In this document: positions 8,507-37,055 of the stretch, in pieces
How the letters are laid out: the number at the start of each line of letters is the position of its first letter
Numbering within the stretch: position 1 is the stretch's first letter
Assembly (NCBI RefSeq): GCF_006345805.1
Contig: NW_021834299.1
Span: 1 to 49,904 of the forward strand
Origin: Octopus sinensis
Taxonomy: Eukaryota
Direction: 5' to 3'
DNA length: 49,904 nt
The notes under the pieces: model-generated
Database searches by the model: none
Seen by the model: only the letters and a program-made list of their open reading frames with translations
What the model was told of the DNA's origin: nothing
Translations under genes and position numbers: made by a program

Positions 8507-9136
8507 TACATAGACATACATACATAGAAACAAAGATATATAGACACAGACATACGTTCAAACATACATACATACATACATACATACATACATACATACA
8601 TACATACATACATACATACATACATACATACGTACATACATACATACGTACACGATCACCATAAATGCACAGGACATAATCACACTGCCACCATCACCGC
8701 TATTACCATCTCCAACACCAACACTCTCCGCCACCTACGGTCTACCGTCAACTGTTTCCACCACCAACAACAACAACAACAAAACCAATATGAACAACAA
8801 CAACAACAAAGCCAACATGAATAGCAACAACAACAATCAAACTACCAAATCGATTTTTATACAACACAAGAGATTTAAGACATGGTTCTCAACACAATTC
8901 TGTCAACACTGGACGAAAACTATTTTTTCGCCGCGATAAATATTTAATATACATTCATACATATGTGTGTGAGTGGTTGTGTGTGTGTGTTGTGTGTGTG
9001 TGTGTGTACGTGTATGTATATATATATATATTATATTAGTATATTAATATATATATATATATATATATAATATATATATATGTATGTATATATATACATA
9101 ATGGTATATATATATCTATAATATATCTTATAAAAT

Positions 9137-10850
9137 TATTAGAGACAAAACCACTATTTTGCAAAACAAACAAGGAAAGACTTAATCAATACATAAAATT
9201 TTAATAAATAGTCAAAAAAACCGCCACTACAATTGTTTCTTGTCTTGATCGACAATCTTCAGGTGGACTTCCAATCTAAAATATCAATATTTTAAAATAT
9301 AAAAATAATAATTTTAAAATAATTAAAGTATGAATGAAAAAATATAAATTATAATCCATATATAACCTATATATAATCCATATATAATCAATATATAACA
9401 ATATATAAACTAATATAAACTAAAATAAACCTATCAACAATTAAATATAAAATATAAATAATAAATATAAAATATAAAACAAACAAAAAAATAATAATAT
9501 ATAATAATAAACTATATATACACCCATACACATATACCTAATTATATATAACCATATCTAACTACATACACTAAATCACACACCTATATATATATCCCTA
9601 TACATACACATAAAACGTCTAGGCAACTATAAATAAATAAATAGCTAAATACTTCAACACAGTACTTATTCATACTCCCACACACACACACATACAACCC
9701 ACATTCACGCTCTAGAAAACGGACATCACTTAAATTATGAACGGAGAAATGGAATAATGGAATTAAAAATTATATTCACTTGGTAAAACGAACACTACTT
9801 AAAAATTATGAATGAAACAATGCAATAAAACAACAGACATCGCAAATAGACACAAATTACTACGAATTCCCTAACAAACCTACCATGATAACCCAAAACC
9901 ATAAAAACATATAATGAAAAAATCTCCCTTTACTAAACTCTATAACATACCTATATAGCATCCCCCTAACCTAAACATTCACACACAAATACACACACGT
10001 GACGTAACCACACACCCACGACATATACAAATACCCACCCACTTACACATACCTATACATACATATAAACCTCAACATATACTCCAAAACCCACTCAACC
10101 CCACACAGACAAATAAACACAAAAATATGAATGGATTCTTTTATAAAACTACCATGATAAGCTAAAACTCACAAAACATAAATGATAAAACCTCCCTTTA
10201 CTAAACACTATAACATACTTATATAGCAATCCCTTTAACCTAACATTCACACACATACACACACGTAAAACCACACCCCATAACAAATACAAACACCCAC
10301 CCCACTCACACACACCCACAAGTACATATAAGCCTCAACATATACACCAAACAAAATTACTTTACCAAGGAACTTAACATATGTATAAAAAGTATAACCG
10401 CTCTGGAAACGAACATCTTTTAAAATAATGAATGGAGAAATGGAATAAATGGAATTAAAAATAATATTCACGTGGCAAAACGAACACCACTCAAAATTAT
10501 GAATGAAACAATGTAATAAAAACAACCAACATCGAAAATAGACAAATTACCACGAATTCCCTAAAAAAACCATGATAAACCAAAACTCTTAAAAACATAT
10601 AACGATAAAATCTCCCTTGCTAAACTCTATAACAAACCTATATAGCAATCCCCCTAACCTAAACATTCACACACAATACACACACGTAAACCACAGACCC
10701 CGACTTATACACATACCTATACTAACTTATAAACCTCATATACACCAAAAACCACTCCCTCCCCACACAGACAAATTAACACATACATCCCAAAACCTAA
10801 ATAACAAACCCATATACACATTCACACACAAACACAAAGTTGTCTACTCC
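9137..10850 (-). mobile_element. PLE-like non-coding 3' region / pseudo-LTR with internal duplications, abutting (TA)n
   Basis: HHR near the left end; strong strand skew (plus strand G-poor); 9721-10120 repeated at 10411-10790; the terminal ~50 bp recurs at 44711-44765 inside (TA)n. Confidence 0.55.
9224..9266 (-). ncRNA. Minimal type I hammerhead ribozyme
   Basis: Minus strand reads ccac CTGAAGA ttgtc gatcaa gacaa GAAAC aatt GTA gtgg: complete core, 4-bp stem I, 5-bp stem II, palindromic stem III (acaattgt), GUA cleavage triplet. Confidence 0.85.
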
Positions 10851-10859
10851 TTATGCAGA

Positions 10860-11880
10860 GTTTGGCCATCTCCTGTACCTACACCTTAGAACCATCATGG
10901 CATCTGTTGTGGCTCTTCAAACCAGACAATGTTCTGAAAGACACCCACATAGATTGCACATCCGATTTGAACTACCAAGAGCAGCAGATAATTTCTGATC
11001 TTTGTGGATCTTAAAATGTCTTTTGAAGCCTCCGTTAGATTTGCCTTCAAAGGTGTGCACAGACATATAGGCAGAATAGTTGGTGGAGGTTCGTTTTCCA
11101 TGGGTTCGCAAATGAGATTTGAACCTAGCAAAAGAAAGGCATGGTCTGTCACAAACTGTGCACACAAAAGGGTCATTGTCATTCACCTTTTCGATTGTAA
11201 CATTCTTCCTTAAATCTCTTTTGAGTCTTACATGCGTTATCCTGGCCTCTTCAAACGCTTTCACTCCACTCCACACTTTTGTTCGCCATTCAGCTCGATC
11301 CGAAGCAAGGGTTTCTATGTCTTCTGGATCCATTCCAAGTGACTTCATTGTAGTCCTTATACCGTCCTTAAACCTTTTTTTTAGGTTTACACCGATAGTG
11401 TTTCCCCTCTGCAAGCTCACTATAAAACAGCTGTTTCTGCATGCGTTAATCCGCCATTCGAACAATATGGCCACACCATCTCATTTGGTTCATCAAAATC
11501 ATAGCTGTAATTGAGGTGACACCTGCAGGTGCAAAGACATCCGTGTTTGGAGTAAAAGAACTCCAGTTAATGTTTAAAATGCATTGAAGGCATTTTGGTG
11601 GAATTGTTCTAACAATTTAAAATGCTTTTCATAACAAATCCATGTTTCACAAGAATACAATAGGGATGGTAAGACAAATGATTTGTAAAGAATCAGCTTT
11701 GTATTGTTATTTATAAGTCGCTGGCACCAAACGCGTGACTCCAAGCCACTAAATGCTTTTGCTGCCCTTTGAATTCGCAGATGTATTTCTGTATCTAGAT
11801 TTCCATCATTTTGTACAGAGCTTCCAAGGTAGATGAACGAATCGACAACCTCAAGTGACTTTACCCTTAACAAAAATTTT
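10860..11880 (-). mobile_element. RTE-clade LINE 3' fragment with C2H2-like C-terminus
   Basis: SFIYLGSSV, LPSLLYSCETW, KKRFKDGIRTTMK, LASDRAEWR and CTVCDRPCLSFARFKSHLRTH. Confidence 0.9.
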
Positions 11881-12220: not shown

Positions 12221-12520
12221 CATATATATATATATCAACATATGTGTATACATATATATATATTATATATATATATATATATTATATATATATATATATT
12301 TTAGTCAATTTAGGGTAGCAAAAAAATTCAATAGAAATTTATCGCAACCAGCGGCCTGGTGAAAAAGAGAAAATAGTCATCGACTAAATATATAAATATA
12401 ACGATTTAGGAGTGACCCCAACAGGTCACTCGTCCACCAGAAAGAGCAGCCATAACTCACACCGCCAAGTATTATTAATTCAGAAATTAGGTGAAAATTT
12501 AAAAACTTTACCCTAATTCA

Positions 12521-12621
12521 TCTTTTAGACGTTGCAACGTTTCTGTGTCATTAATGATTAAATTAGCTTAATTAAATTAAATTAAGCCAATCTACCATAG
12601 GTTACACTTCATCAGTAAAGA
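12521..12621 (-). ncRNA. Type I hammerhead ribozyme, unit 1
   Basis: Reverse complement of the motif described for 14916-15016. Confidence 0.8.
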
Positions 12622-12991
12622 CCTGGGAGAGACAAATATACACTAGGCGTCTGTATCGAAGCCTACGGGATATCTGACTTAAAATTTTCAAGACTGACGT
12701 ATTCTCGCGCCAACTTATCAACAGTAAATATAAACTGCCGCTTCAATCTCAGAATATTCAGAAAATTATCAATTAGTCAATTTAGGGTAGCAAAAAAATT
12801 CAATAGAATTTATCGCAACCAGCGGCCTGGTGAAAAAGAGAAATATTCATCGACTAAATATATAAATATAACGATTTAGGAGTGACCCCAACAGGTCACT
12901 CGTCCACCAGAAAGAGCAGCCATAACTCACACCGCCAAGTATTATTAATTCAGAAATTAGGTGAAAATTTAAAAACATTTACCCTAATTCA

Positions 12992-13091
12992 TCTTTTAGA
13001 CGTTGCAACGTTTCTGTGTCATTAATGATTAAATTAGCTTAATTAAATTAATTAAGCCAATCTACCATAGGTTACACTTCATCAGTAAAGA
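12992..13091 (-). ncRNA. Type I hammerhead ribozyme, unit 2
   Basis: Same motif as unit 1. Confidence 0.8.
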
Positions 13092-13465
13092 CCTGGGAGA
13101 GACAAATATACACGAGGCGTCTGTATCGAAGCCTACGGGATATCTGACTTAAAATTTTCAAGACTGACGTATTCGCGCCAACTTATCAACAGTAAATATA
13201 AACTGCCGCTTCAATCTCAGAATTATTCAGAAAATTATCAATTAGTCAATTTAGGGTAGCAAAAAAATTCAATAGAAATTTATCGCAAAACCAACGGCCT
13301 GGTGAAAAAGAGAAAATAGTCATCGACTAAATATATAAATATAACGATTAGGAGTGACCCCAACAGGTCACTCGTCCACCAGAGAGCAGCCATAACTCAC
13401 ACGCCAAGTATTATTAATTCAGAAATTAGGTGAAAATGAAATTTAAAAACATTTACCCTAATTCA

Positions 13466-13568
13466 TCTTTTAGACGTTGCAACGTTTCTCTGTGTCATTA
13501 ATGATTAAATTAGCTTAATTAAATTAAATTAAGCCAATCTACCAGTTACACTTCATCAGCAGTAAAGA
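13466..13568 (-). ncRNA. Type I hammerhead ribozyme, unit 3 (3-nt duplication between stem I and core)
   Basis: Same motif, but reads tctttaCTGctgatga and has other small indels. Confidence 0.65.
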
Positions 13569-13937
13569 CCTGGGAGAGACAAATATACACGAGGCGTCTG
13601 TATCGAAGCCTACGGGATATCTGACTTAAAATTTTCAAGACTGACGTATTCGCGCCAAACTTATCAACAGTAATATAAACTGCGCTTCAATCTCAGAATT
13701 ATTCAGAAAATTATCAATTAGTCAATTTAGGGTAGCAAAAAATTCAATAGAAATTTATCGCAACCAGCGGCCTGGTGAAAAAGAGAAAATAGTCATCGAC
13801 TAAATATATAAATATAACGATTTAGGAGTGACCCCAACAGGTCACTCGTCCACCAGAAAGAGCAGCCATAACTCACACCGCCAAGTATTATTAATTCAGA
13901 AATTAGGTGAAAATTTAAAAACATTTACCCTAATTCA

Positions 13938-14038
13938 TCTTTTAGACGTTGCAACGTTTCTGTGTCATTAATGATTAAATTAGCTTAATTAAATTAAATT
14001 AAGCCAATCTACCATAGGTTACACTTCATCAGTAAAGA
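13938..14038 (-). ncRNA. Type I hammerhead ribozyme, unit 4
   Basis: Same motif as unit 1. Confidence 0.8.
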
Positions 14039-14408
14039 CCTGGGAGAGACAAATATACACGAGGCGTCTGTATCGAAGCCTACGGGATATCTGACTTAAA
14101 ATTTTCAAGACTGACGTATTCGCGCCAAACTTATCAACAGTAAATATAAACTGCCGCTTCAATCTCAGAATTATTCAGAAAATTATCAATTAGTCAATTT
14201 AGGGTAGCAAAAAATTCAATAGAAATTTATCGCAACCAGCGGCCTGGTGAAAAAGAGAAAATAGTCATCGACAAATATATAAATATAACGATTTAGGAGT
14301 GACCCCAACAGGTCACTCGTCCACCAGAAAGAGCAGCCATAACTCACACCGCCAAGTATTATTAATTCAGAAATTAGGTGAAAATTTAAAAACATTTACC
14401 CTAATTCA

Positions 14409-14508
14409 TCTTTTAGACGTTGCAACGTTTCTGTGTCATTAATGATTAAATTAGCTTAATTAAATTAAATTAAGCCAATCTACCATAGTTACACTTCATC
14501 AGTAAAGA
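14409..14508 (-). ncRNA. Type I hammerhead ribozyme, unit 5
   Basis: Same motif as unit 1. Confidence 0.8.
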
Positions 14509-14915
14509 CCTGGGAGAGACAAATATACACGAGGCGTCTGTATCGAAGCCTACGGGATATCTGACTTAAAATTTTCAAGACTGACGTATTCGCGCCAAAC
14601 TTATCAACAGTAAATATAAACTGCCGCTTCAATCTCAGAATTATTCAGAAAATTATCAATTAGTCAATTAGGGTAGCAAAAAAATTCAATAGAAAAAAAT
14701 TTTCACCAGGCCGCTGGTTGCGATAAATTTCTATTGAATTTTTTTGCTACCCTAAATTGACTAATTGATAATTTTCTGAATAATTCTGAGATTGAAGCGG
14801 CAGTTTTATATTACTGTTGATAAGTTTGGCGCGAATACGTCAGTCTTGAAAATTTTAAGTCAGATATCCCGTAGGCTTCGATACAGACGCCTCGTGTATA
14901 TTTGTCTCTCCCAGG

Positions 14916-15016
14916 TCTTTACTGATGAAGTGTAACCTATGGTAGATTGGCTTAATTTAATTTAATTAAGCTAATTTAATCATTAATGACACAGAAACGT
15001 TGCAACGTCTAAAAGA
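14916..15016 (+). ncRNA. Type I hammerhead ribozyme in the inverted copy
   Basis: tcttta CTGATGA a gtgt...(long AU-rich hairpin ttggcttaatt/aattaagctaa)...acac a GAA acgttgcaacgt C taaaaga. Core boxes intact, stem III is a perfect 12-nt palindrome, predicted GUC cleavage after 15009. Confidence 0.82.
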
Positions 15017-15137
15017 TGAATTAGGGTAAATGTTTTTAAATTTTCACCTAATTTCTGAATTAATAATACTTGGCGGTGTGAGTTTATGGCTGCTCTTTCT
15101 GGTGGACGAGTGACCTGTTGGGGTCACTCCTAAATCG

Positions 15138-15195
<58 letters not shown>

Positions 15196-15199
15196 CGCA

Positions 15200-15237
<38 letters not shown>

Positions 15238-15527
15238 TCACCGTGATCACCGTGACCGACCAGGCTATCATGTGTTGCTACACATCGCTGGTCACAATGC
15301 GCTTCGCATTGTTTTAGCCTTTAAATGACGCCACCCCGCTGGCCAACAGAAGAAAGAGTGAGAGAAAGTTGTGGCGAAAGAGTACAGCAGGGATCGCCAC
15401 CATCCCCTGCCGGAGCGTCGTGGAGCTTTAGGTGTTTTCGCTCAATAACACTCACAACGCCCGGTCTGGGAATCGAAACCGCGATCCTACGACCGCTGCC
15501 CTAACCACTGGGCTATTGCGCCTCCAC
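15238..15527 (-). mobile_element. SINE family C, near full length
   Basis: tRNA-like head (agcccagtggttagggcag; ggtttcgattccc) and 3' tail gtcacggtgatcacggtga followed by (TA)n. Confidence 0.9.
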
Positions 15528-17490: not shown

Positions 17491-17612
17491 AAAGTCACCA
17501 GCACTTGAAGATGTTCATCAAATTTGGTTTATCAATGAAATCGGAGAGGGTTTCTGTGTATTATAAATACCTATAAACTACAAGTGTTTGCATAGACAAT
17601 AATGTGAGGGCG

Positions 17613-17653
17613 ATCTCTGATGACGCACAAATAAAGCTTGAAACTAGTTAGAT
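17613..17653 (+). ncRNA. Degenerate minimal hammerhead motif
   Basis: atct CTGATGA cgc acaaataaa gctt GAAAC ta GTT agat: stem I atct/agat, palindromic stem III actagt, weak stem II. Confidence 0.55.
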
Positions 17654-17667
17654 ATATCAGTTTTATT

Positions 17668-19985: not shown

Positions 19986-20158
19986 TAAATCACATATATG
20001 TTTTCCAGACATCCTAGAGAGTTTGATTATCTTCATGAAGTATTAGGAGTGAGTTCTATGAAATGTACAGTCAAATTATAAGCAGACTTAAAATGCTTTC
20101 TAATGATGCACAGATAATCAAACTCTCTAGGATGTCTGGAAAACATATGTGATTTAGC
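19984..20158. repeat. ~48-bp near-perfect inverted repeat with a 79-bp spacer
   Basis: 19984-20032 is the reverse complement of 20112-20158 apart from one TA insertion. Confidence 0.9.
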
Positions 20159-20441
20159 TGATGAACACTGGACATTTGTATTTGCTGCGATATTTGCAGC
20201 TTCAAATAAAATTGCTCTTAGTATGAAACAATTGTACTGAACTACTAATCCATTCTTGTTGCTTTTTTCTTGGTTATAATCACCCCACATTATTTTATGG
20301 TTAATACCATAAAGAATTCAGGTGCATCTAAGTTAAGTACCATATTCATTTGAATTCACTTGAATCTTAATGCTTTTTGCTGAATTTTATATATATGTAT
20401 ATATATATATATATATACACACGCATAATATATATATATAT

Positions 20442-36849: not shown

Positions 36850-36981
36850 CCTTTTTGTTTATCGCTCGAAGATTGACCGTTTTTTCTAAAGGGCCAATCA
36901 AACAAGTCCATTTCTTTTTAAAGGTGTAGCGTTTGTAAGAGTATAGATTGAATTGATATATCAGTTCCATTCTAGCAAAAA

Positions 36982-37019
36982 CTGTCTGATGAACGGCAAC
37001 GAGAAACTCAGAGTAACAG
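36982..37019 (+). ncRNA. Minimal type I hammerhead ribozyme in a ~210-bp (TA)n-flanked insert (36849-37060)
   Basis: ctgt CTGATGA a cg gcaa cg a GAAAC tc a ga GTA acag: intact core, GNRA-capped 2-bp stem II, pseudo-palindromic stem III actc-a-gagt. Confidence 0.8.
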
Positions 37020-37055
37020 ATTTGGTTGAATTTTCTGCTGCTAAAATAAAAAAAG

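What the first reader, a model, noticed from the sequence alone, without database searches (positions are those of the whole stretch)
14916..15016. Unusual hammerhead architecture: 12-nt palindromic stem III and a long AU-rich stem II
Seen: stem III is acgttgcaacgt, fully self-complementary. Stem II is ~65 nt with an internal hairpin (ttggcttaatt/aattaagctaa) and an extra A on each side of the core. Stem I (tcttta/taaaaga) has a bulge. Known: minimal PLE and retrozyme HHRs with palindromic stem III cleave efficiently as dimers. Inference: adjacent units could pair through this palindrome, coupling cleavage to multimer transcription.
Basis: partly seen in the sequence, partly recalled or inferred. 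Interest (0 to 1): 0.7.

Follow-up and report, generated by a model that had tools for sequence, protein, structure and literature searches.

The report
Long-armed hammerhead in a rolling-circle retrozyme
A young jumping repeat in this animal genome carries a hammerhead ribozyme motif with an extra-long arm and a mirror-image stem that is predicted to let neighbouring copies cut as a pair, which is a known design, and its genomic copies look as if each insertion was likely copied round and round from one circular RNA; cutting itself is untested.

Summary
The motif is real: a type I hammerhead at 14916-15016, in the inverted arm of a 471-nt tandem repeat inserted in (TA)n, with at least 488 copies in the genome. 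The 12-nt palindrome is kept in three subfamilies by two compensatory double changes. Those pairs form in both a monomer hairpin and a dimer duplex, and the four central bases never vary, so covariation does not decide between them. Folding favours the dimer, which is published biology for Penelope-like (PLE) and retrozyme hammerheads. One correction: the 'extra A on each side' is an A-A mismatch at pair 10.1-11.1, paired in relatives. Long stem II arms occur in five other hammerhead motifs here. The stronger result is genomic: arrays are internally uniform (162 variant calls in all units, 74 in one unit, 0 intermediate), and 27 of 29 two-armed insertions start one arm at each of two fixed sites. 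This fits PLE-driven copying of a one-unit, probably circular RNA. No autonomous partner was found. The scan's index held no look-alike by sequence; the 8 hammerhead notes shown for this genome concern permuted motifs.

The parts
14916..15016 (+). Type I hammerhead motif of the finding; predicted cut between 15009 and 15010
14916..14921 (+). Stem I 5' strand; pairs with 15010-15016 (one bulged A, a derived state of this subfamily)
14922..14928 (+). Core box C3-A9
14929..14993 (+). Stem II region: A-A mismatch at 10.1/11.1 (14929, 14993), 4-bp proximal helix (14930-14933 with 14989-14992), 5x5 internal loop, 19-bp AU-rich distal helix (14939-14957 with 14964-14983)
14997..15008 (+). 12-nt palindromic stem III strand including A15.1 and U16.1; 3 Watson-Crick pairs plus tetraloop as monomer, 10-12 bp as inter-unit duplex
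14908..15026 (+). Likely outer extension of stem I (about 14909-14914 with 15021-15026) beyond an invariant 4-nt bulge at 15017-15020; one mismatch in this subfamily
14700..15143 (+). Inverted, 5'-truncated arm of the insertion; 3' end at start site 1 (about 130-141 nt after the cut site), running into (TA)n
12301..14695 (-). Tandem arm, 5.1 units of about 471 nt; 3' end at start site 2 (226 nt after the cut site), running into (TA)n
14411..14507 (-). Hammerhead copy in the array
13940..14037 (-). Hammerhead copy in the array
13466..13566 (-). Hammerhead copy with small indels beside both core boxes (damage or assembly error)
12994..13090 (-). Hammerhead copy in the array
12523..12620 (-). Hammerhead copy in the array
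12222..12300 (.). (TA)n target, left flank
15139..15238 (.). (TA)n target, right flank

Best explanation
This is a type I hammerhead motif inside a young, non-coding 471-nt tandem repeat (a non-LTR retrozyme) that is likely mobilised by Penelope-like enzymes, and it is predicted to cut mainly when two neighbouring units pair through the palindrome, releasing one-unit RNA that would be circularised and reverse-transcribed round and round. Shown: the motif, its covarying helices, the tandem plus inverted layout, (TA)n targets, two fixed 3' start sites, scattered 5' ends and uniform arrays. Inferred steps: (1) read-through transcription of an array; (2) the palindromes of units n and n+1 form a 12-bp duplex, giving a nested double hammerhead in which each core cuts the other's site, while a lone unit mostly folds into an inactive rod where the 3' half of the palindrome pairs with the core; (3) the monomer is ligated by a host ligase, and the circle, having one palindrome only, is stable; (4) a PLE RT-endonuclease nicks both strands of (TA)n and primes two cDNAs, one at each start site on the same template; both run through the cut site for up to 8 units and are joined head to head. 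The long stem II arm is most likely a tolerated extension of loop II that keeps the canonical short proximal helix.
For: Palindrome kept: 96 of 100 listed copies and 88 of 100 in relatives; stem III 100% paired with 2 of 4 pairs changed on both sides; the two changes sit on separate branches of a tree built from flanks only. Folding: duplex probability 0.96-0.98; double hammerhead costs 8.9, 3.8 and 8.7 kcal/mol above the ensemble against 22.9, 16.1 and 20.7 for two monomer hammerheads; a lone active fold costs 3.1-8.2, and 6.4-7.1 in the circle. Other families: 5 of 6 unrelated motif families have palindromic stem III with different centres. Insertion anatomy in 42 loci, 72 arm segments: 37 3' ends at 133-143 and 32 at 223-248 nt after the cut; 27 of 29 two-armed insertions have one arm of each class and none has two of a kind; 5' ends are compatible with uniform (KS p 0.62). 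This matches the two internal RT start sites and two-strand priming shown for an anole PLE (PMC11167929) and the inverted-arm, tail and (TA)n features of PLEs (PMC8557442). One-unit template: in 34 loci with 3 or more covering units, 162 variant calls are in all units, 74 in one unit, 0 intermediate; 17 locus-private variants are fixed in their array, 14 across both arms, including one in this window's array.
Against: No cleavage, ligation or circle was observed; only assembled contigs of runs guessed to be RNA were available. The covarying pairs do not separate hairpin from duplex and the centre is invariant. Any repeated 12-nt palindrome gives a high duplex probability at equilibrium, so one search is partly trivial, ignores tertiary contacts and Mg2+, and ignores that the first unit folds before the second is made. 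Even the double hammerhead is 8.9 kcal/mol above the ensemble in this subfamily. This youngest subfamily has lost the 10.1-11.1 pair and gained a stem I bulge, which should weaken catalysis. An anole PLE hammerhead needed protein to cut and was dispensable for insertion in vitro (PMC11167929); 8 of 9 Xenopus retrozyme dimers did not cut (10.64898/2026.07.22.740005). 5' ends show at most a weak excess at the cut site (7 of 72 within 11 nt, p 0.05, several being joints inside the palindrome). No autonomous PLE sharing this repeat was found.
Confidence: 0.6

Rival explanations
1. The ribozyme cuts as a monomer during transcription. Stem III is an ordinary 3-bp hairpin with a tetraloop; the perfect palindrome is a relic of shorter dimer-type ancestors or is kept by template-switch correction at the DNA or cDNA level. 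The circle-based copying still holds.
For: Both compensatory changes fall in pairs that the hairpin forms. The local active fold is only 3-4 kcal/mol above the ensemble in subfamilies A and B, within reach of tertiary stabilisation. Invertebrate retrozyme hammerheads with a two-pair helix III cleave efficiently as monomers (PMC7229834 passages; PMC7761336 passages). The palindrome acts at the DNA level too: arm joints fall in it in L093, L113 and L115.
Against: The isolated hairpin is marginal (-0.9 to +0.8 kcal/mol with four pairs) against -13.9 to -17.5 for the duplex. Tetraloops in unrelated families are self-complementary with different sequences, which a hairpin would not need. An efficient monomer would reopen the circle.
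Confidence: 0.22
2. The hammerhead of this subfamily is slow, protein-dependent or decaying and is not what makes the template. Uniform arrays come from repeated re-priming on one RNA, from another circularisation route, or from tandem expansion and conversion after insertion.
For: A-A at 10.1-11.1 and the stem I bulge are derived in the most recent subfamily. All long arms read through intact cut sites. Published PLE hammerheads are weak in vitro (PMC4209133; PMC11167929). Contigs with clustered A-to-G changes over the motif suggest that fold-back transcripts are edited and silenced.
Against: The 15 core positions other than position 4, and stems I-III, are held across subfamilies 72-88% identical. 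Expansion after insertion does not readily explain private variants fixed across both inverted arms with no intermediate case. A U-U mismatch at the base of helix II is reported in an axolotl hammerhead that still cuts (PMC7229834).
Confidence: 0.18

Closest known systems
Metazoan non-LTR retrozymes with type I hammerheads (PMC7229834; PMC7761336; 10.64898/2026.07.22.740005)
   Same: Non-coding, low-GC tandem units of a few hundred bases, one type I hammerhead per unit, dispersed arrays; proposed cut, circle and PLE-driven copying cycle; a mismatch at the base of helix II has a precedent (axolotl HHR_Amex2).
   Different: 65-nt stem II with an internal loop and long distal helix; 12-nt palindrome rather than 1-2 pairs with a 2-4-nt loop; clear PLE insertion marks (inverted arm, two start sites, (TA)n); circles and cutting not shown here.
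Minimal and small PLE pLTR hammerheads that cut as dimers (PMC4209133; Lunse et al. 2017, not held, known here only through PMC6765202 and PMC7761336)
   Same: Type I topology, palindromic positions 15.2-16.2 and loop 3, tandem context that allows a double hammerhead.
   Different: Stem III is long enough for a 3-bp hairpin, so it is not a minimal motif; helix II region is far longer than the 6-8 bp described; no ORF in the element.
Poseidon PLE of Anolis (PAc; PMC11167929)
   Same: Two internal reverse-transcription start sites downstream of the hammerhead cut, extension on both target strands, AT-rich targets, tail between the two sites.
   Different: PAc is autonomous; its tail is about 30-40 nt against about 90 nt here; here the two sites are used one per arm in 27 of 29 two-armed insertions.
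Neptune and Naiad PLEs (PMC8557442)
   Same: (TA)n targets, tandem and inverted 5'-truncated copies, tail at one end.
   Different: No coding sequence; the two intact RT-GIY-YIG families examined in this genome share no repeat sequence with this element, so the partner clade is not established.

Membership tests
Type I hammerhead ribozyme | Core boxes CUGANGA, GAAA and UH in type I order | tested here: met
Type I hammerhead ribozyme | Three helices around the core, supported by covariation | tested here: met
   93.9% of cells paired, 7 pairs with two-sided change, 0-1 in slid controls; stem I itself shows no two-sided change
Type I hammerhead ribozyme | Base pair 10.1-11.1 closing helix II | tested here: not met
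   A-A in this subfamily; paired in 18 of 21 aligned copies
Type I hammerhead ribozyme | Match to an Rfam hammerhead model | tested here: not met
   0 matches at gathering score in the window; no hammerhead among 5 matches up to E 10
Type I hammerhead ribozyme | Loop I - loop II tertiary contact | tested here: inconclusive
   internal loops lie 6 bp (stem I) and 4-5 bp (stem II) from the core and the stem I bulge is invariant, but no contact could be assigned
Type I hammerhead ribozyme | Site-specific self-cleavage | not testable with these tools
   needs in vitro transcription or end-mapped reads
Non-LTR retrozyme | Tandem units of a few hundred bases with a type I hammerhead in consecutive units | tested here: met
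Non-LTR retrozyme | Non-coding, GC under 50% | tested here: met
   about 34% GC; only one stop-to-stop frame of 80 aa or more (86 aa) in the array
Non-LTR retrozyme | Expressed as linear and circular monomer RNA | not testable with these tools
   only contigs of runs guessed to be RNA; the genomic one-unit signature is indirect
PLE-mobilised element | Inverted 5'-truncated arm, two fixed 3' ends (tail), microsatellite target | tested here: met
PLE-mobilised element | Sequence shared with the pLTR of an autonomous PLE | tested here: inconclusive
   no meaningful match in 29 GIY-YIG loci; only 150 of 5029 candidates were scored
Obligate-dimer minimal PLE hammerhead | Helix III absent or 1-2 bp | tested here: not met
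   3 Watson-Crick pairs plus A15.1-U16.1 and a tetraloop
Obligate-dimer minimal PLE hammerhead | Palindromic stem III strand in tandem context | tested here: met

The most novel reading that the evidence does not exclude
A widespread, descriptor-missed class of long-armed type I hammerheads acts as a unit counter: silent in a lone unit or circle, cutting only in two-unit transcripts, so that each excised circle is handed to a dimeric PLE enzyme that primes both target ends at two different sites and rolls round the same circle. The copies then give a direct genomic record of circular-template retrotransposition by PLE machinery, a step so far proposed but, in the papers I could search, not read from insertion haplotypes.
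Probability: 0.4. Interest if true: 0.6.

Novelty: new variant of a known kind. Interest (0 to 1): 0.42.

Why it matters
The ribozyme architecture alone is a modest variant: dimer cutting through a palindromic stem III has been the working model for PLE and amphibian hammerheads for years. Two points have value for specialists. First, hammerheads with 50-75-nt stem II arms are missed by Rfam here and fall outside the short-spacer descriptor used in one PLE survey (PMC8557442), so animal hammerheads are probably undercounted. Second, it is an open question which enzyme moves animal retrozymes and whether circles are the template. This family shows PLE insertion marks and a one-unit-template signature together, and gives a simple testable system: one construct series separates monomer from dimer cutting, and haplotype uniformity can be scored in any long-read assembly.

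Tried and rejected
Rfam: no hammerhead model matches. 'Extra A on each side of the core' as a new core variant: rejected, it is the 10.1-11.1 position. Splice acceptor just upstream of stem I, as in Drosophila virilis Penelope: the AG of this subfamily is absent in subfamilies B and C, rejected. C/D-box or kink-turn reading of the core: no continuing helix, only weak chance Rfam hits, rejected. 5' ends piling up at the cut site as a footprint of cutting: not found beyond a weak excess. Autonomous partner: BLAST of the unit against 29 GIY-YIG loci gave only AT-rich chance matches; a pattern for a short-stem-II ancestor gave 1 match against 3 control matches. A covariance model was built but could not be applied genome-wide, so distant relatives with other palindrome centres may be missed. 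Sequencing runs: no RNA holder listed on record; contigs cannot show ends or circles. Lunse et al. 2017 was not held, so its motif catalogue and supplements could contain long palindromes or long stems II that I did not see. No supplements of any paper were read; those of PMC4209133, PMC7229834 and PMC8557442 and of the 2026 preprint may list similar motifs. The 13 single-unit variant calls seen in more than one locus were checked as a sign of linear mixed templates; they are scattered over 10 sites and look recurrent. The tree used 31 of 45 picked loci (the rest lacked upstream flank) and is midpoint-rooted, so direction of change is tentative.

Full report
Observation. The stretch 14916-15016 holds a complete type I hammerhead layout: stem I 5' strand, core CTGATGA, 65 nt, GAA, a perfect 12-nt palindrome that includes A15.1 and U16.1, C17, and the stem I 3' strand with a bulged A. 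The predicted cut is between 15009 and 15010. The stretch folds better than 199 of 200 shuffles (z -3.1). Rfam finds no hammerhead in the window or at relaxed threshold around the motif.

Setting. The motif lies in a 452-nt inverted arm (14700 to about 15143, + strand) abutting 5.1 tandem units of about 471 nt on the - strand (12301-14695), flanked by (TA)n on both sides. The array is about 34% GC and has no substantial ORF. The genome is a 2.7-Gb animal assembly. A pattern on the flanks of stem III finds 488 exact matches; of the 100 listed, 93 carry this palindrome, 3 carry a different perfect palindrome and 4 are broken. A second pattern finds 151 matches in related subfamilies; 88 of the 100 listed are perfect palindromes of three kinds. 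These relatives are 72-88% identical to the window's unit.

Structure from relatives. On 21 aligned copies, 93.9% of cells pair under the proposed structure, 7 of 39 pairs change on both sides, against 0-1 in slid controls (the structure came from these sequences, so the paired percentage is favoured). Stem III is paired in all cells, with two-sided changes at palindrome positions 3/10 and 4/9; the central four bases do not vary between subfamilies. A tree of flanks only (31 of 45 picked loci, midpoint root) nests this subfamily inside the others; the mismatch and the stem I bulge appear together, before the last palindrome change (L089 has the mismatch with the older palindrome). Stem II is a 4-5-bp proximal helix, an internal loop and a long AU-rich helix in all subfamilies. 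Five other motifs in the DNA read here have 51-61-nt stem II regions with 8-nt palindromes: window 20153-20241, two in L082, one each in L084 and L045; the window and L045 motifs share downstream sequence and may be one family. The long arm is thus a recurring design in this genome.

Monomer or dimer. In two-unit transcripts of three subfamilies the palindromes pair with each other with probability 0.96-0.98. The nested double hammerhead lies 8.9, 3.8 and 8.7 kcal/mol above the ensemble, two separate hammerheads 22.9, 16.1 and 20.7. A lone unit reaches the active fold at a cost of 3.1-8.2 kcal/mol; its best fold pairs the 3' half of the palindrome with the core. These numbers favour the dimer but follow largely from the palindrome itself and omit tertiary contacts and folding order. 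With a filter that leaves the loop free, 5 of 6 unrelated motif families are palindromic with different centres, against 0.33 hits and no palindromes per shuffled replicate. Against an obligate dimer: the covarying pairs are shared with the hairpin, and invertebrate retrozyme hammerheads with a two-pair helix III are reported to cut as monomers (PMC7229834, abstract, section 14 and passages; PMC7761336, passages). Dimer cutting through a palindromic stem III is the published model (PMC4209133, parts 1-2 of 4; PMC6765202, passages).

How the element moves. In 42 loci (the first-listed arrays on three contigs plus the window; 72 arm segments), 37 3' ends fall 133-143 nt and 32 fall 223-248 nt after the cut site, nearly all running into (TA)n; the other three are one end at 101 and two artefacts. 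By my count, 29 loci have two head-to-head arms; 27 have one arm of each class, one has an end at 101, one is cut by an assembly gap, and none has two of a kind. 5' ends are scattered (KS p 0.62). Arms run through intact cut sites for up to 8 units. This matches PLE behaviour: inverted 5'-truncated copies, a tail and (TA)n targets (PMC8557442, passages), and two internal start sites with extension on both target strands (PMC11167929, parts 1-2 of 4).

One-unit template. Across 53 loci (240 unit pieces), loci differ in haplotype but each array is uniform. In the 34 loci with three or more covering units, non-majority alleles are in all units (162 calls) or in one unit (74), never in between; 17 variants are private to one locus and fixed in it, 14 across both arms, including position 259 in this window's array. 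The single-unit calls seen in more than one locus are scattered and look recurrent, and no unit reverts to the majority allele. A new variant can reach all units of both arms in one step only if one unit was copied repeatedly. A circle is the simplest such template, as proposed for retrozymes (PMC7229834 discussion; PMC7761336). This is indirect: it does not locate the circle's junction, and re-priming, conversion or assembly polishing are not fully excluded, although polishing would not favour locus-private alleles.

Partner. The genome holds intact RT-GIY-YIG elements of at least two families, 781 and 775 aa, with a Cys motif before the endonuclease as described for Neptune-type PLEs. Neither shares sequence with this unit; only 150 of 5029 candidates were scored.

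Expression. Runs guessed to be RNA hold contigs of this family. In run X1 the differences are skewed (A>G at 39 places, T>C at 15; one 293-nt contig with 49 changes), and one loose end in X5 is A-to-G converted over the GAAA box, while run X15 shows no such skew. This hints at transcription and A-to-I hyper-editing of fold-back RNA. It rests on few low-depth contigs, the two clearest from one study.

Literature. Searches found the dimer model, the retrozyme cycle and a 2026 preprint deriving animal retrozymes from PLE pLTRs (10.64898/2026.07.22.740005, parts 1-3 of 5). In the parts read I saw no hammerhead with a 50-75-nt stem II in such elements and no haplotype test of circular templates. 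Lunse et al. 2017 was not held and no supplements were read. Hammerhead numbering is recalled convention.

Verdict. Observation confirmed with one correction; interpretation plausible but neither proven nor new. The element is a new long-armed variant of non-LTR retrozyme with good genomic evidence for PLE-type, one-unit-template copying. Interest 0.42.

Noticed in passing
window 20153-20241 (+): Unrelated type I hammerhead motif with a 60-nt stem II and an 8-nt palindromic stem III; downstream sequence resembles the motif in L045.
   Followed up: partly
window 9223-9267 (-), element about 9130-10850: Short-stem-II hammerhead with an 8-nt palindrome near the (TA)n-anchored end of a different AT-rich repeat element.
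   Followed up: no
window 17612-17654 (+) and 36981-37020 (+): Two more hammerhead-like motifs; the second has an odd-length near-palindrome and a relative in L065.
   Followed up: no
window 10917-11870 (-): Broken LINE-type reverse transcriptase remnant; the 186-aa frame has a weak zinc-finger match.
   Followed up: partly
L031, L036, L037, L039, L043, L145 and others: Core position 4 is C in many relatives and changes together with base 11.1 (C with C, U with U) in two lineages of the flank tree; both are CpG sites, so parallel deamination may explain it.
   Followed up: partly
L081:174-3874 (+) and 3' UTR; L086: Intact young PLE family with a 479-aa upstream ORF overlapping the 781-aa RT-GIY-YIG ORF; its 3' end seems to carry a hammerhead with the U3-A8 core variant.
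   Followed up: partly
L093, L113, L115, L130 arm junctions: Head-to-head joints fall inside the stem III palindrome or the stem II hairpin, suggesting that self-complementary stretches help join the two cDNAs.
   Followed up: no
window 15084-15128 (+) and equivalent in all subfamilies: A hairpin just upstream of start site 1 keeps its pairing with different sequences in subfamilies A, B and C (folds); a candidate binding site for the reverse transcriptase.
   Followed up: no
runs X1 and X5 laid on window 13780-15150: Clustered A-to-G and T-to-C changes in single contigs, one over the catalytic core, as expected from hyper-editing of fold-back RNA.
   Followed up: partly
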